Of a DNA stretch of 64,000 nucleotides, positions 15,149 to 62,431 are shown in pieces. Each line of letters begins with the position of its first letter. Within the stretch, counting starts at the first letter, position 1. A program made the position numbers and the translations under genes. The notes below the pieces were generated by a model. It was not told the origin of the DNA. It did no database searches and worked only from the letters and a program-made list of their open reading frames with translations. The stretch is from IMG/VR virus record IMGVR_UViG_3300027736_000023. One strand, given 5' to 3'. Source of the stretch: an uncultured virus (IMG/VR IMGVR_UViG_3300027736_000023). Its lineage: Duplodnaviria; Heunggongvirae; Uroviricota; Caudoviricetes.

Positions 15149-15996
15149 TTACAGTTACATATAGTGCAGACGGTATCCACGTTAAGGCTGATGAAATAAG
15201 TAAATATAATAAAAATTTACCGTTAACTGTAAATATTAAAAAGCACGTTAGTGGTGAACTACAGTGGTCAGGTGTATTAAATGATAATTGGTTTGCAACC
15301 TATCCAAATACTGAAATGTTTGATATTGAAATTACTGACTCAAAGGCTAATTTAATTTATATTAAAACTTGGGATATTATGGAACACGGTACGCACTTCT
15401 ATAAATCACTATGGCTATATAATAAACACCTATTAGCAGGTGGTATTTTTCCAAGAGGGCTTGTTATTGGAACACATGATGGAGAATTTGGTGAGTGGGT
15501 TCCGGTTGTTAAAAAAAGAGAATGTGAAGTTGTGCTTGTTGAAGCCTCAGACTCTCAATTCCAAAAATTAAAACAAAATTACCGTAATAATTCTAGAGTT
15601 AAACTGGTTCAAAAATTAATAACTCCAACCGGCGGTGAAGTTGAGTTCTTTGAAGGAGGTAAAGGCTATACAAATAGTGTAGTTGAGTCAGTTATTAAAA
15701 ATTGGGAAACTGAAGAAATTAGGTCAACCCGAAGAGAGTCAATAGGTATTACTGACCTGATTTTAAATGAATGTGGTGGCCGTATTGACTGGCTACACCT
15801 AGATGTTGAAGGTTTGGATGCTGATCTGATTATGGCGATTGACCAAACCAGGGTTTTATTACCCCATTTTATAATATTTGAAGACTATAATTTATCAACA
15901 GATAAAAAGAGTCAAATTTATAATTGGTTAACGGATAAAGGTTATCAAATTTATTCAAACGGTGGAATTTGCGAAGCCATATTCCACAATAAATAG
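15145..15996 (+). CDS. FkbM-family methyltransferase with N-terminal extension
   Basis: VIGTHDG, LVEA, IDWLHLDVEGLD, IIFE. Confidence 0.8.
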   Translation: MITVTYSADGIHVKADEISKYNKNLPLTVNIKKHVSGELQWSGVLNDNWFATYPNTEMFDIEITDSKANLIYIKTWDIMEHGTHFYKSLWLYNKHLLAGGIFPRGLVIGTHDGEFGEWVPVVKKRECEVVLVEASDSQFQKLKQNYRNNSRVKLVQKLITPTGGEVEFFEGGKGYTNSVVESVIKNWETEEIRSTRRESIGITDLILNECGGRIDWLHLDVEGLDADLIMAIDQTRVLLPHFIIFEDYNLSTDKKSQIYNWLTDKGYQIYSNGGICEAIFHNK

Positions 15997-16027
15997 TATA
16001 TTAACTAAGTAACAAAATACCATATAT

Positions 16028-16351
16028 ATGAAACCAGATAATACAATTAGTTTTACAGAGCGTAACTATTTAGAAAACGAAGAGTTCAATAAAAAGAACC
16101 AAGATGAGGTAATAATTAAAGTAAGCAAGGCTGTTGTCTTTAAAAAAGCCCATGGTTATTCATTAACCTTTAGTAAATTAATGAAGAAGTGGAATTGCTC
16201 AACCCCAGATGCATGGAGAGAATTACGCCGCCAGCATAAAAAGGAAAATTATATTGGGCCAAAGCGTGAAAAGAAAGTGGTTGAGGCTGCTCCAGTTCAG
16301 AATAACAACTGGAATAATAAAAACAAAAACGGCCAGCGGTCTAAATACTAA
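16028..16351 (+). CDS. basic hypothetical protein
   Basis: 107 aa, K/R-rich, immediately upstream of the ncRNA array. Confidence 0.7.
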   Translation: MKPDNTISFTERNYLENEEFNKKNQDEVIIKVSKAVVFKKAHGYSLTFSKLMKKWNCSTPDAWRELRRQHKKENYIGPKREKKVVEAAPVQNNNWNNKNKNGQRSKY

Positions 16352-16356
16352 TACTG

Positions 16357-16478
16357 ATCAGGTTTGTCCGTGGTAACCATTCGCCCTAACTAACAAGTTA
16401 ACGGCTGGTGTCCTTAGTCAAAATCCAAACACTGATTCTCTGGTGATTGGGCTAAATGAGAAACAAAAACGGTCACCA
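16357..16478 (+). ncRNA. putative structured RNA A (possible pseudoknots)
   Basis: Stems ATCAG-GTTTG/CAAAC-A-CTGAT, TAACT/AGTTA, TGGTGATTG/CGGTCACCA; loop GGCTAA and GAGAA are complementary to upstream TTAGTC and TTCTC. Confidence 0.5.
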
Positions 16479-16540
16479 ATTTAATAAAGAACTAGTATAG
16501 TGTAATTACGAAACTCTTCACAGTTTTTATACTATTAAAA

Positions 16541-16690
16541 CCCAGCCACTGTATTCCCAAGGGATGGTGTGGTGTCGAGAGCTGCAACCTGCTAAACGGT
16601 GAAGGAGGGTACCCAAGCCTCTCAAAAGTAGAAACAACGTCTCCCCAGTTTCTTGTTCTGTGCACGGAAAGGATTTATAAGGAGCGCTAT
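16541..16690 (+). ncRNA. putative structured RNA B
   Basis: GC-richer non-coding stretch with stems GCCAC/GTGGT, GAGAGCT/AGCCTCTC and AGAAAC/GTTTCT. Confidence 0.4.
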
Positions 16691-16796
16691 AGTCAGGTGG
16701 CGGAATGGCAGACGCAATTAGAAAGTTCCTATAACGCAACGGTTAATGTCGTGGAGCTTTGATATTAACATACAGGTTCGATTCCTGTCCTGACTA
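16691..16796 (+). ncRNA. tRNA-like element 1 (no canonical anticodon arm)
   Basis: Acceptor AGTCAGG/CCTGACT-A, Leu-type D arm GCGGAATGGCAGACGC, T arm ACAGG-TTCGATT-CCTGT; the central ~56 nt is non-canonical. Confidence 0.75.
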
Positions 16797-16820
16797 CATG
16801 TTCTGTTATTAGCAGATAAT

Positions 16821-16999
16821 GTGCCCTACATGATGAGAAACGGAGTGATGTCCGTAAGATGGCTTGGTATCACAGTAAGACTGTGTGTGATTTGTTCAGT
16901 CACCTCAATAAGGGGAAGAGTTTGTAGTAACCGTTGAACTATTCCTAACCCAGCAATGGGGACAACCTCAACACCTGTAAGTTGGATAAAGTAGGGTGT
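16821..16999 (+). ncRNA. putative multi-branched structured RNA C
   Basis: Closing stem GCCCTAC/GTAGGGT; hairpins ACGGA/TCCGT, CACAGT/ACTGTG, GTTCAG/TTGAAC, CCCA-GCAA-TGGG (GNRA), CAAC/GTTG. Confidence 0.65.
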
Positions 17000-17004
17000 T
17001 AAAT

Positions 17005-17091
17005 AGTCAGGTGGTGTAATTGGTAACACCTTTCATTGTCAGGCCCCGTAAGGCTGGAAAGACGATACTTGTTCGAATCAGGTCCTGACTA
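17005..17091 (+). ncRNA. tRNA-like element 2 (Asp-like GTC loop with 12 nt insertion)
   Basis: Same acceptor AGTCAGG/CCTGACT-A; D arm GTGTAATTGGTAACAC; T arm ACTTG-TTCGAAT-CAGGT; enlarged anticodon loop. Confidence 0.75.
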
Positions 17092-17115
17092 CAAAAATAA
17101 GGTAGATAATACACT

Positions 17116-17186
17116 TGTCGGTTCGTCTAAGGGCAGGACAGAAGTTTTTGGTTCTTCTAATGGTAGTTCGAATCTATCACCGACAA
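17116..17186 (+). tRNA. tRNA-Gln(TTG)
   Basis: TGTCGGT/ACCGACA acceptor; anticodon arm GAAGT-TTTTGGT-TCTTC (T-T at 31-39); T arm GGTAG-TTCGAAT-CTATC. Confidence 0.85.
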
Positions 17187-17222
17187 CCCAAATCTTTATT
17201 AAAAATTAAAGTACTATAGTAT

Positions 17223-17489
17223 ATGAAAGGTTCACAAATAAAATCAAAGGCTGAACAGGTTGAACTTAACCGGCTGTTGGCAGAGTTTTCTGAAAAACTA
17301 GAAACTGATCCATATCAGCCTGGAATTGTGCATCCGCATCTGTGTTCTGATGATTTACAGGATGTAATTGAGGACCTATTATGGATTAGAGGAAATTCTG
17401 AAATTACCGTTAAAATTAAAAAAGAGTCTGACATTGACCGAATTTCAATAGAGATACTTGACCGTAAAAATACCTTAACCAATGAATAA
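17223..17489 (+). CDS. hypothetical protein
   Basis: 88 aa ORF. Confidence 0.65.
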   Translation: MKGSQIKSKAEQVELNRLLAEFSEKLETDPYQPGIVHPHLCSDDLQDVIEDLLWIRGNSEITVKIKKESDIDRISIEILDRKNTLTNE

Positions 17490-20406: not shown

Positions 20407-20485
20407 GCTCCATTGGCGGAATTGGTTAGACGCGCTAGCCTTAGGAGCTAGTCTTCGGGTGCAGGTTCGAGTCCTGCATGGAGTA
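20407..20485 (+). tRNA. tRNA-Leu(TAG)
   Basis: GCTCCAT/ATGGAGT acceptor, CTAGC-CTTAGGA-GCTAG anticodon arm, short TTCG variable arm, GCAGG-TTCGAGT-CCTGC T arm. Confidence 0.92.
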
Positions 20486-36797: not shown

Positions 36798-37304
36798 TTA
36801 TATTGACTTAAACAAAAAGTTTTCAGTGATTATTCCAAATTTCATACCTCTGTGAATTGCAAAATCCTTAGCGGCCTCAAACTTAGCTTTATTTACAATA
36901 AACTGCTTTGCTGCATATACGTAATTTGCAGTCTGTTTATCAGTCATTCGCTTCGGCACAACTGGAGCCTTGACGTACTTATCAGGTTTAACCTCAATTA
37001 GCCACTTTTGATCATTACCATCTGCATCCCGAGTAACAATATAGAAATCTACATAATATGTGTGACCTCTTTTATCAAGTGGACTGTAATAGCTGATTCC
37101 AACCGGTTCAGAAGAATATTGAATAATAGTTGGGCTTAAATCACACCATTTTAGGAACTTAAATTCCCAAGAACTTCTAAAAATAATTTGAGAAATATCT
37201 CCAATATATTTGTCAGGGTGAGCGGGTTTAAAATAGCCCTGCTTGATTGCGCCAGCCCGCGGTTTTAAAAACGTTTTAATACTTTTTGACTCTTTAGGTT
37301 TCAT
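36798..37304 (-). CDS. head completion nuclease (T4 gp4, TnsA-like)
   Basis: YFKP.HPDKYIGD, FRSSWE, SSEP, YYVDF, IEVKP, NKAKFEAA. Confidence 0.92.
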   Translation of the reverse strand: MKPKESKSIKTFLKPRAGAIKQGYFKPAHPDKYIGDISQIIFRSSWEFKFLKWCDLSPTIIQYSSEPVGISYYSPLDKRGHTYYVDFYIVTRDADGNDQKWLIEVKPDKYVKAPVVPKRMTDKQTANYVYAAKQFIVNKAKFEAAKDFAIHRGMKFGIITENFLFKSI

Positions 37305-37308
37305 ATAG

Positions 37309-37317
37309 TTATTTATA
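37309..37317 (-). promoter_or_regulatory. putative late promoter TATAAATAA for gp4-gp2-portal
   Basis: Exact T4 late consensus 4 nt upstream of the gp4 ATG. Confidence 0.65.
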
Positions 37318-38434
37318 GATAAACCATATCATAAACCGATTCACTAAAGTTTGTATTAATCCATTTGTTAAATGTTGCCAATGAATAGTCAGGGTTTGAC
37401 TTTCGTAAAAATGAAAACAGGTCGTTAATATCTTTTATCTGAGTTAGCCTAATGAATTCAGATGAGTTCTGGCACAAAGGCTTTAATTCGCTTATTGCTT
37501 TATTCCATAGGAATATTGAATAACCCTGCTTTATAAACTGCATCATCTGGGTACGGCCAGCCTTGTCTTTATCAAATATAATTTTTATTCCACTCTTTGC
37601 TCCAAGATTAGACATAATACTCTTTGCTTTTGAAACACCAGAGGTGGCAATACAATTATCGAGTAATAGTGAGTCGAATTGACCCTCAGCCAATAAAATA
37701 GGTTTAGCGAAATCAATATTTAAAATATTAAAATAATTATTTAAAAAGTTTGCATCTTCAATTACCTGTTTATTAAGACCTTTTTGACTAAAAATTCCAG
37801 CAAGATCAGTATAGGTTTTAATAATATATTTACGATCAGAATTTGGGTCAAGGCTTCTCATTGAAAATCCCAAGACTCGGCCTGATCGCCTATCAAAATT
37901 AAAAATATAAATTTTATTGTCAGCTGAGTCTGAATAGAGATAGTCTCCGTATTCTTCAATTAGAGCCAGGTCTCGGCCATTAATATAGGACAGGGCACGA
38001 GACTCAGTTTCTAACTGGTCAAGCCGCTTAAGCCCGAACCGGTTAATTATATCGGTTATTTTAACCAGCTCACTGGTATCAGAGGTTATAAACCTGACTA
38101 ATTGATTGTCGTCTCTGGCTTTTTTAACTGGTTTATATTCAACATCAAGCACAAAGCTCGGCAGCATAATACCATGATCTTTACTCATTTTGGCAACAAA
38201 TTCGCCAAGCGTCATATAGGCCATGCAGCCATCGTTAAAGCACTTATATGCTCCAGTATCTAAATATAGATTACCACGTTTTTTAGATGATTTTTTCTCA
38301 GAGTCTCCACAGATTGGACACGCAAAATTTAATTTACGGTCAGTATCATTATCAACCTTTTGTTTTTCAAAATTATCATGAAATCTTTTGCGTAATAGTG
38401 TTGTAACAAAATGTATTAGTTCTTCGCGCTTCAT
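37313..38434 (-). CDS. DNA primase (T4 gp61-like)
   Basis: NFACPICGDS...KKRG...YKCFNDGC; TOPRIM EGQFDS, FDKD, KDIND. Confidence 0.92.
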   Translation of the reverse strand: MKREELIHFVTTLLRKRFHDNFEKQKVDNDTDRKLNFACPICGDSEKKSSKKRGNLYLDTGAYKCFNDGCMAYMTLGEFVAKMSKDHGIMLPSFVLDVEYKPVKKARDDNQLVRFITSDTSELVKITDIINRFGLKRLDQLETESRALSYINGRDLALIEEYGDYLYSDSADNKIYIFNFDRRSGRVLGFSMRSLDPNSDRKYIIKTYTDLAGIFSQKGLNKQVIEDANFLNNYFNILNIDFAKPILLAEGQFDSLLLDNCIATSGVSKAKSIMSNLGAKSGIKIIFDKDKAGRTQMMQFIKQGYSIFLWNKAISELKPLCQNSSEFIRLTQIKDINDLFSFLRKSNPDYSLATFNKWINTNFSESVYDMVYL

Positions 38435-38438
38435 TTAG

Positions 38439-39908
38439 TTAAAACGAAATTTGAGTTTGTTTTAAGTCAGCCTTCTTTTTTGACTTTGGTGCAACAGTAT
38501 TATCTTGAGGCTTTTCAATTTTAATGCCTTTTTTCTTGGCAATACGCTCTCGGTATTTATGAAGCTCGTGCTTTGGAACAATTACCGTATTTAAACCATA
38601 TTTAGAAATAGAAGAAATATAGACTATGAATAGTTCAGTTGGTACTTTTTTATCAGATGATTCAATATATTCTTGGCATATTTCTGGAATTTCACAATAC
38701 TCCAGCGATTCTGAGTTTACTGAATATAGCGGATAGGTCTCTTCAGTTGTAAACTCTTTAGTTCGGCTCCGGGTTTTAATTATTTCAACTTTTCGAGTTA
38801 GGATTGCGGTTAATTCCGGATAGCCCATTGCAACCAGTAATTTATTAATAGGTTCAATAATTAGTCTAAAAAATTGTTGTTCACGATCAAGCGGCACGGC
38901 AAATTCAATTGGAAATGAGCCTGGTGAATATGCAAAAATATCAAAATTGTGTTCATTCGGCGAGGCATAGTAGAATTTAATTTTAGAACCGCTACGAATT
39001 AATGAATATTTTTCGCTTTTTGTCTTTTTGATAAGATGGTTATGATAGGCTGAGGCTCTACCGTATATTGGCATACCCTTTTCCATAACCAATGGCAATA
39101 GGCTTGTTAAATAGTCTTCGTATACTCTTACTGAAAAGTTAAATGCAATATCCTCAATTGGTAAAGCATCACATTCAGTTTTTAATATTTGTAATTTTGG
39201 AATTAAATCCGTTTCTAAATCAATAGAATAGCCTTTATCTAAAATATAGGTATATAATTTTTGTAAATGAGCACGTGCCCAAATTGGATATGATGCCTGA
39301 ATTGCCTCTAACCCTTTTATAATTAGCGATTCTTTTTCTAATAGTCGCTCATTTTTATTATCTTTATATGAAACGGTTAAGATATATTTCTTTTTAGCTA
39401 ACCAAATGCCAGACCTAGATAAATTTTCTAATTCAAAATTTTGTCTGTTATCTGTATTAAAATGAGTTGCATATTTTTCAAATGCCTGTTTAAAATAGTC
39501 ATTTAATCGGTGGCGGTTAAGTGCCAAACAAAATTCAAGTGACTTTTTATTGTCAAGTGATAAACCTTCAACTGACTGTAGTGCATAGTCAAAGCAGACA
39601 TAGACACTATCGGTATCAGTATAAATTGCGGCCTCTTTCTTAATTTGATTAATTTTCATATTAGATATGCCTAATATTTGGTGTAGTTCTGAATCTAGGT
39701 GCCACTTATTTTGAAAATAGTGATTAACTGCCTTGATTGAAAACTTTATTAGGTCTTGACCCTGTAGAGTAATTGACTGGGCAATATCATTATTATGAAA
39801 ATAAAAGTAGCGATTGCCAAATGCTCCATAAAAAGAATTAATAAGGATTTTTATTGCATTTTGCTTAAGATCTAATGATTTTATCTGGTTCTCTAAAATA
39901 TGGCTCAT
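38439..39908 (-). CDS. family B DNA polymerase, C-terminal subunit (split gp43)
   Basis: KILINSFYGAFGN, ITLQGQ, YTDTDS, KKKY, KGLE; no exonuclease domain or motif A. Confidence 0.9.
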   Translation of the reverse strand: MSHILENQIKSLDLKQNAIKILINSFYGAFGNRYFYFHNNDIAQSITLQGQDLIKFSIKAVNHYFQNKWHLDSELHQILGISNMKINQIKKEAAIYTDTDSVYVCFDYALQSVEGLSLDNKKSLEFCLALNRHRLNDYFKQAFEKYATHFNTDNRQNFELENLSRSGIWLAKKKYILTVSYKDNKNERLLEKESLIIKGLEAIQASYPIWARAHLQKLYTYILDKGYSIDLETDLIPKLQILKTECDALPIEDIAFNFSVRVYEDYLTSLLPLVMEKGMPIYGRASAYHNHLIKKTKSEKYSLIRSGSKIKFYYASPNEHNFDIFAYSPGSFPIEFAVPLDREQQFFRLIIEPINKLLVAMGYPELTAILTRKVEIIKTRSRTKEFTTEETYPLYSVNSESLEYCEIPEICQEYIESSDKKVPTELFIVYISSISKYGLNTVIVPKHELHKYRERIAKKKGIKIEKPQDNTVAPKSKKKADLKQTQISF

Positions 39909-46515: not shown

Positions 46516-49500
46516 ATGGCAGGACTATCACACTTAAGAGACGTTTATGATAAGCGGGGTAAGGACTTTTTAGAAGGCTTACTAAATAAAACGGTTATTG
46601 TAAATGAAAAAATGGATGGAGCATTTTTTGGTGCTCAAAAAAATCCTGAAACTAATAAATTTAAATACTTTAAAAGAAATGCGGAAATTACGCATATTGA
46701 CCGGGTGCTTAGTAAATACTATGAGCCTGCGATTAAACATTTTGATGGGCTTGACTCTAATACAGTTTCACAAATTCCAAACAATTACCATTTTGGTATG
46801 GAATGGTTTACCAGCCCAAAGGCTCAAACTATTGCATACGATAGACTTCCAAAAAATGGCTTGATACTTAGTTATATTCATATATTAGATGAATCGGGCC
46901 AAATATCAGAGACCGTTCAAGATAAAGAAACTCTTGATAAATGGGCCGGTATTTTAAATATTGAACCACCGCCAATTGTATTTCAGGGTAAATTAACCGA
47001 TTTTCAAAAAGAAAAAGTTCAAGAATTTATCTACACTCCGTTTTCTGAATTGGTTGATCGATTTAAAACAACATCATTTACTAAATATATTATATCGGTA
47101 TTAAATCCTGAGATGGGAGCCTCTTTTCTTAGGGATACGCTAGACCAAGATATTGAAGGTTTGGTATTTAGATTTTACGATCCAAAAAATAAATCTGAGG
47201 ATTCTGTATTTTTAGCTAAATTGGTAGATCCAGTATTTCAGGCAAATGCAAAACAAAAAGCACAAGACCGGGTTCAAAAAAAATCAGATGACTATATTTG
47301 GATTATTGTAATTGACTTAATGAATTTTATTGAGAGAAATTCAGTTAGTGAGCTTAGATCAATAAAGCTATCTGGTAAGTCGTATGAAGAGCGCTATATT
47401 TCATTGGTTAATCATATTTATTTAAATTTTATTTCTGAGTTTGGAGAAAAATACACAGATTTAGATATTCAAATTCCTGAGTTTTTACAGAGAGAAGAAT
47501 TTGGTGTTAATTTTAAAATGATTAATAATAATAAGGTTACTAAAATACTTGAATCAAATCATAATTTTAAAGAAATTTACCGAATTTTCTTAAATATCTT
47601 TAGAAAAAAGTCAGTACGCGTTAGCTCAACATTCTTTACTAAAGAGATGCGAGCCAACTTAGTTTCTCAAATTAATAAACTAAGTAATGTAATACTAGGA
47701 GATTCAGTTTTTGAAAATTATTTTCCAACCTTTGGCGAATTTGTAGGAGAAGATAAAGATCCTGGATATTTTGAAAGTTATGCAGAAATTCCTGAGGAGA
47801 AAAAAAAAGCCAAACGGGTAAACGTAATAATTTCTGACTTTCAACCAATTCACCCAGGCCATATTAAGTCTGCACAAAAGTTATTTGATACAAACGGTCT
47901 GCCGTGTCTATTTGCATGCATTCATAGTGGATCAACAAATAAGTCTAAACCATTTAAAAAAGAAACAGTTTCTAATATTTTAGCTAAATTGGTAAATCAA
48001 CACCCAAGTTTTATTACAGGTTGGGTAATAGTATCTGATAATGAAGTTGAGAATCTGTTAAGAGAAATTAAACCTGCATATGATCCAGTTATTGTAGCTG
48101 CATCTAAGAATAGAATAAAAGATATTGCTCTACAGTTAGAATTAGCAAGAAAAAGGTCACGAAATTTAAATTTTAAAAAGGATTTGAAATTAATTGAATT
48201 GCCACCAGCCGGCCTAAAAGATTCAATTATGAAACACATTAAAAATCAAGACTATCTTAATTTTAAAGTAGATGCCCCAAATGAAATTCATTCTGAGTTT
48301 TTTAATATGAATAGGGATATGAATGAGTCTGTAAATGAAGCAGTTGAGGCAAGCTTTGCAAATGAAGGTCCTCAGTCAGACGAGTCAATTGCTGACGTTG
48401 TTAAAAAACTTACTGATCTAAAAGAAACGCGCCCTGCTCAATATCCTGAATTAATTAATTTAATTAACCGAAGAATCGATGCGTTAACTATGGATACACG
48501 TGAGCTAATTATTAAAGAAATTATAGCCCGACAATATAATAAAGTTGATTCAGATAAATTTTATAGCACGCTACTAGATACGTCAGTGCCGGTATCTGAT
48601 ATTAAGTCATTTAGCGAGTATATACAAAATGGTGGAGGTTATGATTTAAAAGATGAGATTGATAAAGATAAGACTATTATATTAGAAGCTAGCAATTTTA
48701 AAGCTAGCAATTTTGAAATGTCAGAAGATATGTTTAGAGAAATTATTAGTTATAAGCTAATAGGCGAAACAGGAAAAGGCGAATTATCTGCTATTTTATT
48801 TAAGACTGGAAAAAAGCAAAGTGTGGCAGGTGATATTAATATAAATGAGAAAAAAATTGAAGTAAAGGCATACGATGGAAAGCTTCAAAATACTTCAGTC
48901 GGTAATAATTATGCAGATGCAAGCAGTAATGTGATGGGTGTCAAATTAGAAGAACTTAAAGACCTAATTAAGGAGGCTGCTGCGACTACGGTAATTGATG
49001 CCACTGCCGGCCTGGATGAACTTACTGCGCAAGTAGATGAGGAGAAAAAAGAAATTAATCTGAGCTCGATTACATCGAAAGATTTAAATATTGGTACTAC
49101 AAAGTTAAGAGAGAGTTGGTTAACACTAAAAAACATTGCTAGTGAGAGCGGTCTTTCTGATATTAAATTTGCTGAGTGGTTTGCCGGTATATTTTATGGA
49201 GGAATTTGGAAAACCGAAACCGGTTATAGCCCGGTTTTAGTGACTCAACTTAAAAAAGAAACTGAAGATTATTTTGGAAAAAACACCCGCACTAAGGAGG
49301 AGGCTCAAAGTTTTTTAAATAAATTAGGGTGGCACTCTTTACGATATTATCAAAAATGTGATAACTTTGATAAATTATTATATGTAAATATTAATAATAA
49401 AGAAAATAGTATTATTATTTATGATCCGCTGAAGGCTACTGAATCTGAATTTAGTGAAAGGTTTAGAATTTTAAATGGTCCAAGCTGGACAGATGCCCGA

Positions 49501-49557
49501 AGTAATAGCAGTTTTAGATTAAGAGCTAAATCCGAACCATCCGAACCATCTATCTAA
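46516..49557 (+). CDS. multidomain protein: RNA ligase-like + HIGH nucleotidyltransferase + PD-(D/E)xK-like domain
   Basis: NEKMDG, GMEWF, EGLVFRF, LAKLVD; FQPIHPGH; GKGE...GDI...IEVK. Confidence 0.7.
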   Translation: MAGLSHLRDVYDKRGKDFLEGLLNKTVIVNEKMDGAFFGAQKNPETNKFKYFKRNAEITHIDRVLSKYYEPAIKHFDGLDSNTVSQIPNNYHFGMEWFTSPKAQTIAYDRLPKNGLILSYIHILDESGQISETVQDKETLDKWAGILNIEPPPIVFQGKLTDFQKEKVQEFIYTPFSELVDRFKTTSFTKYIISVLNPEMGASFLRDTLDQDIEGLVFRFYDPKNKSEDSVFLAKLVDPVFQANAKQKAQDRVQKKSDDYIWIIVIDLMNFIERNSVSELRSIKLSGKSYEERYISLVNHIYLNFISEFGEKYTDLDIQIPEFLQREEFGVNFKMINNNKVTKILESNHNFKEIYRIFLNIFRKKSVRVSSTFFTKEMRANLVSQINKLSNVILGDSVFENYFPTFGEFVGEDKDPGYFESYAEIPEEKKKAKRVNVIISDFQPIHPGHIKSAQKLFDTNGLPCLFACIHSGSTNKSKPFKKETVSNILAKLVNQHPSFITGWVIVSDNEVENLLREIKPAYDPVIVAASKNRIKDIALQLELARKRSRNLNFKKDLKLIELPPAGLKDSIMKHIKNQDYLNFKVDAPNEIHSEFFNMNRDMNESVNEAVEASFANEGPQSDESIADVVKKLTDLKETRPAQYPELINLINRRIDALTMDTRELIIKEIIARQYNKVDSDKFYSTLLDTSVPVSDIKSFSEYIQNGGGYDLKDEIDKDKTIILEASNFKASNFEMSEDMFREIISYKLIGETGKGELSAILFKTGKKQSVAGDININEKKIEVKAYDGKLQNTSVGNNYADASSNVMGVKLEELKDLIKEAAATTVIDATAGLDELTAQVDEEKKEINLSSITSKDLNIGTTKLRESWLTLKNIASESGLSDIKFAEWFAGIFYGGIWKTETGYSPVLVTQLKKETEDYFGKNTRTKEEAQSFLNKLGWHSLRYYQKCDNFDKLLYVNINNKENSIIIYDPLKATESEFSERFRILNGPSWTDARSNSSFRLRAKSEPSEPSI

Positions 49558-60890: not shown

Positions 60891-62431
60891 TGGCTTTATT
60901 ATCAACACCAATAAACGGAATTAACCGAAATAATACGTTTATTAAATCAGCAACGGATGATTTACAAGATCCATTATTTTTAACATTTAGACTTGATTTT
61001 TTTCCAGAAAGAGAGCAATATCCAGTAGGGGATGGCTTATATAATAGTAGTTTACTTAAACAGCCCGGCAGATTTAATGCAAGCGGCGATGGAGATGATA
61101 ACGGATCTACTGTTGAATATTCTACCCAAGACTGGTTAAAGCAATATTACGGCGCTGACTATCAAAGTGATAATATTAAAGTAGGCCACCCTAATCCATA
61201 CCTAGCGCTATATAAATTTAGAGAAGGATTGCGAGTATTACAAGATATGCCATGGTATTTTCAGTCAATTGGTGGAATTGGAGATCTTTGGAAAAGTGCA
61301 CAGGTTGGAATAACCGATGGAAGTAAGAAAATAACTGGCTTAACAATTAACTGTTTGGAATCAGTAATGCAGCCGTTGACTGATCTAGTTGAAAATTATA
61401 GATACGCAATATACGATCAAGACCGATTAGCATATCGAGTTCCAGAAAATTTAAGATGGTTTGATTTGGTAATTGACCTAGTTGAAATTAGAGAGATTGT
61501 TGATCGTGGTGATAATATATTTAGAAAGGACTCTGAAGGTCGTCTATTACAGGGACTAAAGGTAATTCAATTTAGGTGTAAAATGTGTGAATTTGACTTT
61601 AGCGATTTTTTAAATCCAGTTGGGGCACTTGATTATTATGCATATAATACAGATAAACCATTTTATCCAAGTTTTAAAATTAAAGTAGGTTGGGTTAATC
61701 AAGAAGTGGTTAATTTACAGGATGCAGCTGACCTGAAAACAATTGGATTATTTTCAGCACTATCAAATATTGTAGGTAATCGAATTAATAAATTTGTGCA
61801 AGGAGCCAGTAGATTGCCAGGGCAATTAATTGGGTCAGTACTTAATCCATTAACCTCAGCACTTGAAAGTAGCGTATTTGGTAATGCATATGAAGGTCTT
61901 TCTTCAGATCTTAAAAATATACCAAGAATAATGAATAAAATACAAGGTGTTACACCAACGGCTGATGTACCTATTCCATATGATACTGCTATCCTGTCTG
62001 GAACGGCTGATGTCTATCCAGATTCAATTGAAAATTATCCGGAAGTTAAAGAAGGACCACCGAATAGATTTAATCCAAATCCGCCTCCTGAAAATATATA
62101 TGACGATAAGGTATTAGCTGGAACAGCCGATGTATATCCAAATTCAACTAGAGAGCCGGTAGTTGGACCGCCAACTGGAACTGTTTATTCTAATCAAACG
62201 GAGTCAGTAGCTGAACCAACTGGAAATGCTTATCCTAATCAAACTGAGCCAGTAGCTGGACCGCCGACTGGAGATGTTTATCCTAATCGAACTGAGCCAG
62301 TAGCTGAACCAACTGGAAATGTTTATCCCAATCAAACTGAGCCAGCAGCTGGACCACCAACTGGAGATGTTTATCCTAATCGAACTGAGCCAGTAGCTGG
62401 ACCGCCGACTGGAAATGTTTATTCTACGTAA
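60890..62431 (+). CDS. putative tail/baseplate protein with C-terminal Pro-rich tandem repeats
   Basis: PWYFQSIGG, ITGLTINCLES; repeat tail. Confidence 0.55.
   Translation: MALLSTPINGINRNNTFIKSATDDLQDPLFLTFRLDFFPEREQYPVGDGLYNSSLLKQPGRFNASGDGDDNGSTVEYSTQDWLKQYYGADYQSDNIKVGHPNPYLALYKFREGLRVLQDMPWYFQSIGGIGDLWKSAQVGITDGSKKITGLTINCLESVMQPLTDLVENYRYAIYDQDRLAYRVPENLRWFDLVIDLVEIREIVDRGDNIFRKDSEGRLLQGLKVIQFRCKMCEFDFSDFLNPVGALDYYAYNTDKPFYPSFKIKVGWVNQEVVNLQDAADLKTIGLFSALSNIVGNRINKFVQGASRLPGQLIGSVLNPLTSALESSVFGNAYEGLSSDLKNIPRIMNKIQGVTPTADVPIPYDTAILSGTADVYPDSIENYPEVKEGPPNRFNPNPPPENIYDDKVLAGTADVYPNSTREPVVGPPTGTVYSNQTESVAEPTGNAYPNQTEPVAGPPTGDVYPNRTEPVAEPTGNVYPNQTEPAAGPPTGDVYPNRTEPVAGPPTGNVYST
62133..62428 (+). 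repeat. coding tandem repeat of alternating 48 and 45 bp units
   Basis: Encodes YPNQTEPVAGPPTGDV / YPNRTEPVAEPTGNV, about 6 copies. Confidence 0.9.

What the first reader, a model, noticed from the sequence alone, without database searches (positions are those of the whole stretch)
16357..17186. Non-coding RNA array: structured RNAs punctuated by tRNA-like elements
Seen: ~840 nt with no credible ORF and higher GC than the flanks, arranged as RNA A (16357-16478), a small stem (TAGTATAG/TTATACTA, ~16493-16534), RNA B (16541-16690), tRNA-like 1, RNA C (16821-16999), tRNA-like 2 and tRNA-Gln. RNA C is bracketed by the two tRNA-like elements. Established: RNase P and 3' tRNA-processing nucleases recognise the acceptor/T-arm shape rather than the anticodon. 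Inference: the anticodon-defective tRNA mimics may act as processing signals that release discrete phage ncRNAs from one transcript. I cannot assign RNAs A-C to a known family.
Basis: partly seen in the sequence, partly recalled or inferred. Interest (0 to 1): 0.82.

Follow-up and report, generated by a model that had tools for sequence, protein, structure and literature searches.

The report
Phage ncRNA cluster with tRNA look-alikes
An uncultured lake phage related to T4 carries, next to a glutamine tRNA, two tRNA-shaped RNAs that cannot read codons and at least two other conserved folded RNAs; all belong to families that recur in many related phages, and their job is unknown.

Summary
The ORF-free gap 16352-17222 is real and holds several genuine RNA genes. 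The two tRNA-like elements (16691-16796, 17005-17091) belong to a large phage family with a nearly fixed tRNA-Leu-type body and a hypervariable core: the acceptor stem, D arm, T arm and A73 are constant. I found 195 distinct elements falling into 158 core types. "RNA C" is really 16797-17001. It is a ~200-nt pseudoknotted RNA found in 64 viral loci, with strong covariation. It starts right after a tRNA(-like) 3' end in 34 of 46 distinct contexts. "RNA B" is a composite of three recurrent modules. RNA A and the small stem have no support. None of these RNAs matches Rfam 15. Lake metatranscriptome contigs carry RNA B and RNA C sequence, but they cannot show RNA ends.

The punctuation idea is plausible and has old precedents in the T4 and T5 tRNA regions, where tRNA-like and other "stable RNAs of unknown function" lie head to tail with tRNAs. 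Cleavage itself is untested here. The tRNA-like elements are more than punctuation, because their cores are conserved and covary within subfamilies.

Verdict: a new variant of a known but unexplained kind. Earlier notes of this scan report similar anticodon-less tRNA look-alikes in other phages.

The parts
16355..16487 (+). 'RNA A': unverified. This 133-nt stretch is absent from one related sequence variant.
   Evidence: Fold z -1.39. No relatives found. One metatranscriptome contig joins 16354 to 16488 (table 5). A TAATA repeat lies at both edges.
16488..16540 (+).
   Evidence: -8.2 kcal/mol, z -1.34. No promoter or terminator was called here.
16541..16579 (+). Hairpin module carrying the motif UUCCCAAGGG (first part of 'RNA B').
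   Evidence: The same 10-mer sits in a conserved hairpin with covarying flanks at 7 places (5 distinct) in 414 kb of related loci. The window copy is diverged.
16580..16623 (+). Module B1, a conserved 44-nt element with a hairpin.
   Evidence: 8 distinct copies aligned (A5). Covariation is inconclusive: 75 of 500 shuffles reach the observed score. In other RNAs it is carried by lake RNA contigs of word depth 213-242.
16624..16687 (+). Module B2, a conserved ~64-nt element with a long-range helix and a hairpin whose loop is a 6-nt palindrome.
   Evidence: 17 viral loci; 13 copies aligned (A4). 4 of 10 pairs have double changes; covariation 0.268 against 0.178, 0 of 500 shuffles.
16691..16796 (+). 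tRNA-like 1: a tRNA-Leu-type body with a 57-nt non-anticodon core.
   Evidence: Model R2 74.6 bits, E 6e-16. Not called by ARAGORN. Fold z -3.02. The core is a singleton among 195 elements.
16797..17001 (+). RNA C: a ~205-nt pseudoknotted RNA with a conserved 5' domain (P1, P2, P3, pseudoknot), a variable centre and a conserved 3' domain (hairpin plus terminal hairpin with a 17-nt conserved loop).
   Evidence: 64 of 68 pattern loci carry it. On A1, 95.8% of cells are paired, 16 of 26 pairs have double changes, and covariation is 0.406 against 0.203 (0 of 500 shuffles). Model R1 scores 65.9 bits at 16797-16869.
17005..17091 (+). tRNA-like 2: the same body with a 37-nt core.
   Evidence: R2 63.1 bits. 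Rfam tRNA 42 bits with a 14-nt insertion in the anticodon loop. Not called by ARAGORN.
17115..17190 (+). tRNA-Gln(UUG), an ordinary tRNA.
   Evidence: ARAGORN; Rfam 48.4 bits.

Best explanation
This is the tRNA-region RNA gene cluster of a large T4-like lake phage. It lies on the same strand as its flanking genes and is probably transcribed as one precursor.

It encodes the following, in order:
- a hairpin module, followed by RNA modules B1 and B2;
- a non-decoding RNA built on a tRNA-Leu-type body (tRNA-like 1);
- the pseudoknotted RNA C;
- a second non-decoding tRNA-body RNA (tRNA-like 2);
- tRNA-Gln.

Shown: the families are real, conserved and structured, and they fit no catalogued family.

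Inferred: the host's tRNA-processing enzymes cut at each L-shaped body. RNase P would cut at position 1, and a 3' nuclease plus the CCA-adding enzyme would act after A73-C74. That would release the tRNA-body RNAs as stable molecules. It would also set the 3' end of B2 and both ends of RNA C.

On this reading the tRNA bodies have two roles. They are punctuation for their neighbours. They are also a stabilising chassis that carries a variable, structured core, which is the working part.

The cellular target is unknown. I think binding or titrating a host factor during takeover or counter-defence is the most likely job.
For: Phage identity: T4-type portal, UvsW, family B polymerase and topoisomerase II. 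The nearly identical record is estimated at 14% complete at 38 kb.

Scaffold family:
- 140 of 167 distinct matches also have the 5' strand AGTCAGG upstream, and most have the same D arm. Neither was part of the pattern.
- There are 195 distinct elements of 69-182 nt. ARAGORN of them, with scattered and odd anticodons.
- The cores fall into 158 clusters, 136 of them singletons.
- Acceptor variants are almost all single wobble changes.
- The best non-family match of model R2 is the phage's own tRNA-Leu, at 34.4 bits. Other tRNAs score 13-34 bits; the highest is T5 tRNA-Met at 33.5.
- Cores covary within subfamilies.
- Each of five 240-310 kb genomes has 1-5 copies, clustered in one or two regions.

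RNA C: covariation, including the pseudoknot. Its junction with a tRNA(-like) 3' end is fixed. In one locus it is followed by a terminator-like hairpin.

Expression: parts of the stretch are held by 14 runs recorded as RNA. In runs X3 and X4, contigs of word depth 157-242 carry B1 and RNA C, and the flanking ORFs have no cover. Sequencing adapters abut at 16619, 16655, 16810 and 16996.

Precedent: in T5, RNA1 (tRNA-like), RNAI, RNAIII and tRNA-His lie with gaps of only 0-4 nt. In T4 the order is tRNA-Arg, rnaD, rnaC. T4 RNAC and RNAD are expressed and of unknown function (PMC9697503, passages).
Against: No read-level 5' or 3' ends exist, and contig depth is a poor measure of expression. DNA carry-over in the RNA libraries is not excluded.

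The adapter-abutted ends (16810, 16996) do not coincide with the predicted cleavage sites (16796/16797, 17004/17005). One RNA contig bridges a tRNA-like element and RNA C.

12 of 46 RNA C contexts lack an upstream tRNA(-like) element. 25 of 43 have no tRNA-like 5' half within 16 nt downstream.

No promoter or terminator was found for the cluster.

Stems conserved at the sequence level are not needed for RNase P recognition, so something else also constrains them.

The window cores show no antisense match to the window beyond shuffled controls. No obvious partner protein is encoded in the window.
Confidence: 0.6

Rival explanations
1. The tRNA-body RNAs are the only functional units. They would act as mimics or decoys that engage a host tRNA-binding factor, such as a defence nuclease, a synthetase, a modification enzyme or a toxin. 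Their position next to RNA C and B2 would reflect only the clustering of RNA genes in the tRNA region, not a processing role.
For: Most family members stand alone between ORFs. The body is fixed while the cores are extremely diverse (158 clusters from 195 elements), as expected in an arms race. Cores covary within subfamilies. RNA C can occur without them (12 of 46 contexts).
Against: The spacing to RNA C is fixed to within about 2 nt in 34 of 46 contexts. All three RNA C copies in two large genomes abut a scaffold element. The cores contain no anticodon-loop mimic that a known anticodon nuclease would recognise.
Confidence: 0.22
2. The conserved halves of the tRNA body matter mainly as DNA. 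They would be recombination or homing-endonuclease target sites that let phages swap RNA cassettes. This would explain why stems are conserved in sequence and why module order is shuffled.
For: Acceptor and T stems are nearly invariant in sequence although structure alone would allow covariation. Module order differs between phages: B1-B2 in some and B2-B1 in others, with different neighbours of RNA C. T4 SegB recognises a 27-bp site that includes the T-psi-C motif of tRNA genes (PMC2330249, abstract and passages). T5 has HNH endonuclease genes among its tRNA genes.
Against: No endonuclease gene lies beside the window's cluster. The nucleotides kept are those needed for tRNA tertiary folding: U8, A14, GG in the D loop, the T loop and A73. 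The elements are found in RNA libraries. This reading does not exclude an RNA role.
Confidence: 0.1
3. The tRNA-like elements are decoding tRNAs with unusual anticodon arms or short introns that are removed after transcription.
For: Rfam's tRNA model passes its threshold for tRNA-like 2 and for many relatives at 31-45 bits. A few family members look like normal tRNAs, for example two tRNA-Lys(UUU). The window encodes a 1013-aa protein with an RNA-ligase domain.
Against: ARAGORN finds no tRNA in 156 of 195 elements, and its 39 calls scatter over many and odd anticodons on one and the same acceptor stem. Neither window core has a 5-bp stem with a 7-nt loop at the right place. Inserts range from about 15 to over 100 nt with no common splice motif.
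Confidence: 0.04
4. The elements are decaying tRNA pseudogenes, and the RNAs between them are meaningless spacers.
For: RNA A and the small stem show no conservation. Some relatives are reduced to a bare acceptor-stem hairpin (loci L160 and L187).
Against: The body is kept nearly unchanged across at least 139 loci. RNA C and B2 covary. Cores covary within subfamilies. RNA contigs carry them.
Confidence: 0.03

Closest known systems
Phage T5 tRNA-region stable RNAs. RNA1 and RNA2 are annotated 'tRNA-like stable RNA with unknown functions', RNA3 'putative tRNA-like RNA', and RNAI, RNAIII, RNAIV and RNA2H 'stable RNA with unknown functions' (NC_005859).
   Same: The architecture is the same. tRNA-like RNAs and other small stable RNAs lie 0-18 nt apart from each other and from tRNAs, on one strand inside the phage tRNA region: RNA1, RNAI, RNAIII, tRNA-His; and RNA2, RNAIV. 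Their function is unknown.
   Different: No specific sequence relationship was found. The scaffold model scores T5 RNA2 at 20 bits, like ordinary tRNAs, and does not report RNA1. The RNA C model finds nothing. T5 is not known to have many cores on one fixed body.
Phage T4 rnaC (species 1) and rnaD (species 2) (NC_000866).
   Same: They lie directly after tRNA-Arg in the tRNA cluster. rnaC ends in a T arm plus an acceptor-like stem. rnaD starts with AUGAGAAAC, a hairpin and UAAG, like the junction and P3 of RNA C. They are expressed and of unknown function (PMC9697503).
   Different: The RNA C 5'-domain model scores rnaD at only 11.2 bits (E 0.23), no better than background. rnaC scores 21.5 bits with the scaffold model, like other T4 tRNAs. 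T4 rnaD lacks P1, P2 and the pseudoknot.
Class II tRNA-Leu.
   Same: The scaffold's D arm and T arm resemble those of the phage's own tRNA-Leu(UAG) at 20407-20485. That tRNA is the best non-family match of the scaffold model, at 34.4 bits. A73 and an A15/U48-type core are kept; their role as LeuRS identity elements is recalled, not tested.
   Different: There is no anticodon stem-loop and no regular long variable arm. The acceptor stem begins A1-U72 and is the same in all members.
tRNA-punctuated RNA maturation: mitochondrial tRNA punctuation, MALAT1-mascRNA, gammaherpesvirus MHV68 tRNA-miRNA units and archaeal or plant t-elements.
   Same: A tRNA-shaped element next to another RNA lets RNase P or RNase Z define that RNA's end.
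   Different: None of those cases is in a phage or uses a fixed body with variable cores. Cleavage was not tested here.
Engineered tRNA scaffolds for expressing recombinant RNAs (recalled).
   Same: A foreign structured RNA replaces the anticodon arm of a tRNA. The L-shaped body gives processing and nuclease resistance.
   Different: That is a laboratory design. Here the arrangement is natural, and its purpose is unknown.

Membership tests
Canonical tRNA (Rfam RF00005) | 7-bp acceptor stem, 5-bp T stem with a GTTCRANYC-type loop, and a D arm with GG. | tested here: met
   Both elements have them.
Canonical tRNA (Rfam RF00005) | 5-bp anticodon stem with a 7-nt loop (U33, anticodon, purine 37). 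| tested here: not met
   ARAGORN calls neither element. The Rfam alignment of tRNA-like 2 needs 14 extra nt in the loop. tRNA-like 1 gets only 15 bits, to tRNA-Sec.
Canonical tRNA (Rfam RF00005) | Score at or above Rfam's gathering threshold (29 bits). | tested here: inconclusive
   tRNA-like 2 scores 42 bits and passes. tRNA-like 1 does not appear.
Phage scaffold family defined here (model R2) | Acceptor AGUCAGG/CCUGACU plus A73, a tRNA-Leu-type D arm, T arm ACAGG-UUCGAAU-CCUGU, and a variable core. | tested here: met
   74.6 and 63.1 bits. tRNA-like 2 has a variant T stem and D stem. Both window elements were in the alignment the model was built from, so these scores are partly by construction.
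T4/T5-type stable RNAs of phage tRNA regions | Encoded inside the phage tRNA gene region, on the tRNA strand, abutting tRNAs. | tested here: met
T4/T5-type stable RNAs of phage tRNA regions | Accumulate as discrete stable RNAs cut out by tRNA-processing enzymes. | not testable with these tools
   Only assembled contigs of RNA runs were available.
T4/T5-type stable RNAs of phage tRNA regions | Sequence or structure homology to T4 rnaC/rnaD or T5 RNA1-3. | tested here: not met
   R1 against rnaD: 11.2 bits, E 0.23. R2 against rnaC 21.5 bits and T5 RNA2 20.1 bits, no better than ordinary tRNAs. R1 finds nothing in T5.
Any Rfam 15 family for RNA A, B or C | cmscan match. | tested here: not met
   No family other than tRNA reaches E <= 0.1 in 16200-17350; the sR52, tRNA-Sec and CrcZ matches (E 0.35-8.8) lie far below their gathering scores. 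Only tRNA and tmRNA pass their gathering scores in 15 related loci; three plastid cis-reg matches (E 0.0006-0.045) lie on tRNA or tRNA-like elements and fall below threshold.
tmRNA | tRNA-like domain plus a tag reading frame. | tested here: not met
   ARAGORN and Rfam find none in the window. A related phage has a true tmRNA elsewhere (L223).

The most novel reading that the evidence does not exclude
Lake phages, probably of Bacteroidota, use one universal tRNA-Leu-type chassis to display more than 150 different structured RNA inserts. A single partner would recognise the chassis, and it might even be charged by LeuRS. This would be a natural counterpart of laboratory tRNA scaffolds. It would act as a fast-evolving library of RNA decoys or aptamers against host factors. 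The same chassis would also cut out companion RNAs such as the pseudoknotted RNA C and the possibly dimerising B2.
Probability: 0.25. Interest if true: 0.85.

Novelty: new variant of a known kind. Interest (0 to 1): 0.68.

Why it matters
Small stable RNAs in the tRNA regions of T4 and T5 have been known for about fifty years (date recalled), and no function has been assigned to them. This window shows that the phenomenon is much wider than those two phages.

It also gives comparative material that T4 and T5 never offered:
- a fixed tRNA body carrying very many different cores;
- a new pseudoknotted RNA of about 200 nt with strong covariation;
- small shuffled modules that appear in lake RNA libraries.

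That makes the old question testable. The fixed body points to one recognisable partner. The fixed junction to RNA C predicts exact cleavage sites. The covariation gives structures to mutate.

If the cores prove to be decoys or aptamers, this would be a new class of phage counter-measure and a natural precedent for tRNA-scaffolded RNA engineering.

Tried and rejected
- BLAST of 16300-17250 against 50,697 phage records found no match at 1e-5. A short element query found only generic T-arm hits in ordinary tRNAs. The families were therefore not seen in cultured phages at that sensitivity.
- Homology of RNA C to T4 rnaD was not significant. Nothing was found in T5.
I modelled the 5' domain only.
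- RNA A: an exact 18-mer scan of viral contigs found only the near-identical record. BLAST against all fetched loci gave only 15-nt matches.
- Antisense targets of the cores, RNA B, RNA C and RNA A inside the 64-kb window were no longer than in shuffled controls.
- ATGAGAAAC occurs only twice in the window, both times in this region. However, 27 of 100 shuffles also have two or more matches.
- Partner proteins: Pfam scans of 77 ORFs found no Ro60/TROVE, RtcB, CCA-adding enzyme or homing endonuclease near the cluster.
- Metatranscriptome contigs cannot show starts, ends or strand. The uncovered parts (tRNA-like cores, tRNA-like 2 and tRNA-Gln in X3 and X4) prove nothing. Contig breaks at 16797/16798 are explained by the repeated scaffold.
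- A scaffold-model hit at 61263-61382 (18 bits, E 0.033) lies inside an ORF and was not pursued.
- Literature: six answered searches found no description of these families. PMC10690425 predicted 8,495 candidate structured RNAs from IMG/VR, including tRNA-like ones (abstract and passages). A search of its supplements for six contig numbers gave 0 hits, but three files could not be searched. Prior listing there as an unnamed candidate is therefore not excluded.
- The T4 genome review (PMC150520) is not held.
Full report
**Setting.** The window comes from a large T4-like phage. It encodes a T4-type portal, UvsW, a family B DNA polymerase, both topoisomerase II subunits and a ClpB-like ATPase. A viral record identical over the region except for two bases is rated 14% complete at 38 kb. 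Lake and freshwater RNA and DNA runs hold parts of the stretch. All flanking genes lie on the + strand.

**Observation.** Between the stop codon at 16351 and the start codon at 17223 there is no ORF above 70 aa on either strand. GC is 0.41-0.455, against 0.265-0.31 just upstream (15800-16199) and 0.325-0.36 downstream.
- ARAGORN finds only tRNA-Gln(UUG) at 17115-17190, plus a tRNA-Leu(UAG) at 20407.
- Rfam's tRNA model also matches 17005-17091 at 42 bits, but only by skipping 14 extra bases in the anticodon loop.
- 16690-16796 reaches only 15 bits, to tRNA-Sec. Nothing else in 16200-17350 matches convincingly: three further matches at E 0.35-8.8 (sR52, tRNA-Sec, CrcZ) lie far below their gathering scores.

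**The tRNA-like elements are members of a large family.**
- Size. Of 167 distinct matches, 140 also have AGTCAGG at tRNA distance upstream. Most have the D arm TGGCGGAAT(T)GGTAGACGC, which the pattern did not ask for.
- Diversity. Over all loci I collected 195 distinct elements of 69-182 nt, median 105. ARAGORN of them, scattered over more than 20 anticodons, many of them odd. Only a few look like normal tRNAs, for example two tRNA-Lys(UUU). With the scaffold stripped, the cores fall into 158 clusters, 136 of them singletons. Both window cores are singletons.
- Fixed stems. Among 299 tRNA-shaped elements in the fetched loci, 195 have exactly AGTCAGG/CCTGACT. The commoner variants are single wobble changes. 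This count is biased, because most loci were fetched with the 3' half. In the loci fetched through RNA C, which are independent of that pattern, the same stem or one-base variants still dominate.
- Model. I built a covariance model from 50 elements: 48 of the 128 elements of 75-118 nt, picked for distinct cores, plus the window's two (A3). It scores the window elements at 74.6 and 63.1 bits, partly by construction because both were in the training alignment. It finds no third member in the window. Its next hit is the phage's tRNA-Leu at 34.4 bits. T4 tRNAs score 17-25 and T4 rnaC 21.5.
- Genomic distribution. Five 240-310 kb phage records have 1, 4, 5, 5 and 3 members, clustered in one or two regions. 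The 24-nt 3' half occurs in only 20 contigs among representative genomes of 185,579 species. All 20 are MAG contigs, 10 of them labelled Bacteroidota, and all are variable-core elements, none a normal tRNA. The body is therefore phage-borne and is not a copy of a known host tRNA.
- Structured cores. In a four-member subfamily, RNAalifold finds an 8-bp stem in place of the anticodon arm and an inner hairpin, with compensatory changes in both core helices. A three-member subfamily shows one more compensatory change.

**RNA C.** BLAST of the segments against the first loci showed relatives of RNA B and RNA C next to scaffold elements.
- A conserved 18-mer from the 3' hairpin loop of RNA C gave 68 viral loci. 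64 have the 5' motif at the right distance, giving 44 distinct sequences. Three of the other four are chance matches inside coding sequence. The fourth, L186, is a real copy that my filter missed.
- I aligned the window with 33 of the 44 sequences, dropping 11 near-duplicates chosen by eye (A1).
- RNAalifold predicts 24 pairs, 15 with compensatory changes.
- I then counted my own structure: P1, P2, P3, a hairpin in the 3' domain, the terminal hairpin, and a pseudoknot between the P2 loop and the bases after P3. It gives 95.8% paired cells, 16 of 26 pairs with double changes, and a covariation score of 0.406 against 0.203 in shuffles (0 of 500) and 0.04-0.10 when slid. Three of the four pseudoknot pairs show compensatory changes. 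The fourth pairs in only 14 of 34 sequences and I do not count it.
- The centre of the RNA is variable and comes in several types.
- A model of the 5' domain was built from 33 sequences, with L157 dropped as too divergent (A2). It places the window copy at 16797-16869 with 65.9 bits.
- RNA C is not universal. It occurs in 2 of the 5 large records, twice in one of them, and each copy starts where a scaffold element ends.

**Junctions.**
- Among 46 distinct RNA C contexts, 31 have a T loop ending 11-16 nt before the RNA C start by a strict pattern. Three more (L153, L164, L173) have variant tRNA 3' ends by eye. That makes 34 of 46.
- The other 12 contexts have AT-rich sequence or a terminator-like hairpin upstream.
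- Of the 43 contexts with enough downstream sequence, 18 have a tRNA-like 5' half within 16 nt of the RNA C end.
- One copy is followed by a clear terminator-like hairpin.
- The element always reads ...CCTGACT-A-C, and RNA C then begins (C)ACG. The bases ACG are also kept where no tRNA-like element precedes.

**RNA B is a composite.**
- A pattern from its 3' part gave 17 viral loci.
- Reading them shows three units: module B1 (16580-16623), module B2 (16624-16687), and upstream a hairpin with UUCCCAAGGG (16541-16579). In other phages these units occur in other orders and next to other partners.
- B2 (13 copies) has modest covariation support. 4 of 10 pairs have double changes, and the score is 0.268 against 0.178 (0 of 500 shuffles).
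- B1 (8 copies) is inconclusive.
- The B2 hairpin loop is a 6-nt palindrome in 11 of 13 copies: GUGCAC in nine, AUGCAU in one and GCGCGC in one. This would fit loop-loop dimerisation, but I did not test it.

**RNA A and the small stem.** Neither folds better than shuffles, and neither has relatives. One RNA-library contig joins 16354 to 16488, so a close variant lacks RNA A entirely.

**Expression.** 14 runs recorded as RNA, all from lake or freshwater samples, hold parts of the stretch at shares of 0.12-0.37. I laid four of them, all as assembled contigs.
- In X3 and X4, contigs carrying B1 have word depths of 213 and 242, and contigs carrying RNA C have 157-164. The flanking ORFs have no cover in those runs.
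- In X1 and X2 the whole region has low cover, with contig word depths of 2-12 (binned sums reach 62 at the repeated scaffold).
- Adapter sequence abuts at 16619, 16655, 16810 and 16996. Short contigs of X3 also end at 16994-16995.
- One X4 contig runs from a tRNA-like element of another core type straight into RNA C.
- Contigs cannot give ends, strand or level, and DNA carry-over is possible. I take this as support for presence in RNA libraries, and as no more than a weak hint of an RNA C 3' end near 16995.

**Comparison with what is known.**
- In T5, the record annotates RNA1 ('tRNA-like stable RNA with unknown functions'), RNAI, RNAIII and tRNA-His separated by gaps of only 0-4 nt. It also annotates RNA2 (tRNA-like) next to RNAIV, and RNA3 next to tRNA-Asn.
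- In T4, tRNA-Arg is followed at once by rnaD and rnaC. rnaC ends in a T arm and folds far better than shuffles, with z -4.57. [quoted passage not shown]
- Homology is another matter. rnaD shares with RNA C only AUGAGAAAC, a hairpin and UAAG, and it scores 11.2 bits (E 0.23), which is background level. T5 has no RNA C relative. T4 rnaC and T5 RNA2 look to the scaffold model like any other tRNA.

**Mechanism.**
- Shown: the elements exist, they are conserved and structured, they sit at fixed junctions, and they occur in RNA libraries.
- Inferred: co-transcription, cleavage by RNase P at position 1 of each body, cleavage by 3' nucleases after A73, and CCA completion after the encoded A-C.
- The body keeps the whole tRNA elbow and core, not just a minihelix. 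It also keeps its stems in sequence. This suggests a sequence-specific partner beyond RNase P, or homogenisation at the DNA level.
- SegB of T4 recognises a site that includes the T-psi-C motif of tRNA genes (PMC2330249, abstract and passages). A DNA-level cassette role is therefore a live rival.
- I found no antisense targets in the window and no obvious partner gene.

**Novelty.**
- No Rfam 15 family fits.
- Six answered literature searches found no description.
- A 2023 survey predicted 8,495 unnamed candidate RNAs from IMG/VR, including tRNA-like ones (PMC10690425). I could not fully search its supplements.
- Earlier notes of this scan describe comparable anticodon-less tRNA look-alikes in other phages and name T5 and T4 as closest. 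I checked the T5 and T4 records myself.
- I therefore class the finding as a new variant of a known, unexplained kind. Two components look new: the fixed-body, many-core family, and RNA C.

Noticed in passing
window 16660-16667 and A4: The B2 hairpin loop is a 6-nt palindrome in 11 of 13 copies, and it changes while staying palindromic (GUGCAC, AUGCAU, GCGCGC). This fits a kissing-loop dimer. The comparison with retroviral dimerisation loops is recalled, not tested.
   Followed up: partly
window 16355-16487: A close variant in a lake RNA library lacks exactly this 133-nt stretch (join 16354 to 16488). TAATA lies at both edges, so RNA A behaves as an insertion/deletion unit.
   Followed up: partly
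L160 and L187, just 3' of RNA C: Some relatives carry only a bare acceptor-stem hairpin: AGTCAGG, an 11-nt loop, CCTGACT, A. They have no D or T arm. These are a minimal or decayed form of the element.
   Followed up: no
L223:229-601 (-): A related phage encodes a full tmRNA (Rfam 92.5 bits) beside modules B1 and B2 and a scaffold element. The window has none.
   Followed up: no
L228-L247; window 17191-17225: Scaffold elements are often followed by an A-rich leader without a Shine-Dalgarno sequence and then ATG. Half of the MAG contigs that carry them are labelled Bacteroidota. This hints at Bacteroidota hosts.
   Followed up: partly
window 46516-49557 (+): A 1013-aa ORF carries an RNA-ligase domain at its N terminus (Pfam PF09414, E 2e-7). 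It is a possible RNA-repair enzyme in a phage rich in tRNA-shaped RNAs.
   Followed up: no
window 36798-39908 (-): A TnsA-like endonuclease ORF (36798-37304) lies two ORFs downstream of a 489-aa ORF that matches only the C-terminal two thirds of the family B polymerase profile. A 373-aa ORF with no Pfam match (37313-38434) separates them. This may be a split or invaded polymerase gene.
   Followed up: no
window 16456-16464 and 16833-16841: ATGAGAAAC occurs only twice in 64 kb, in RNA A and in RNA C, and T4 rnaD starts with it. On its own this is not significant: 27 of 100 shuffles have two or more matches.
   Followed up: partly
L109, L211, L214, L226: Module B2 is tandemly duplicated in some phages. 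It is followed there by a further conserved ~50-nt element (GTGAGATTGGGTGACG...) that the window lacks.
   Followed up: no
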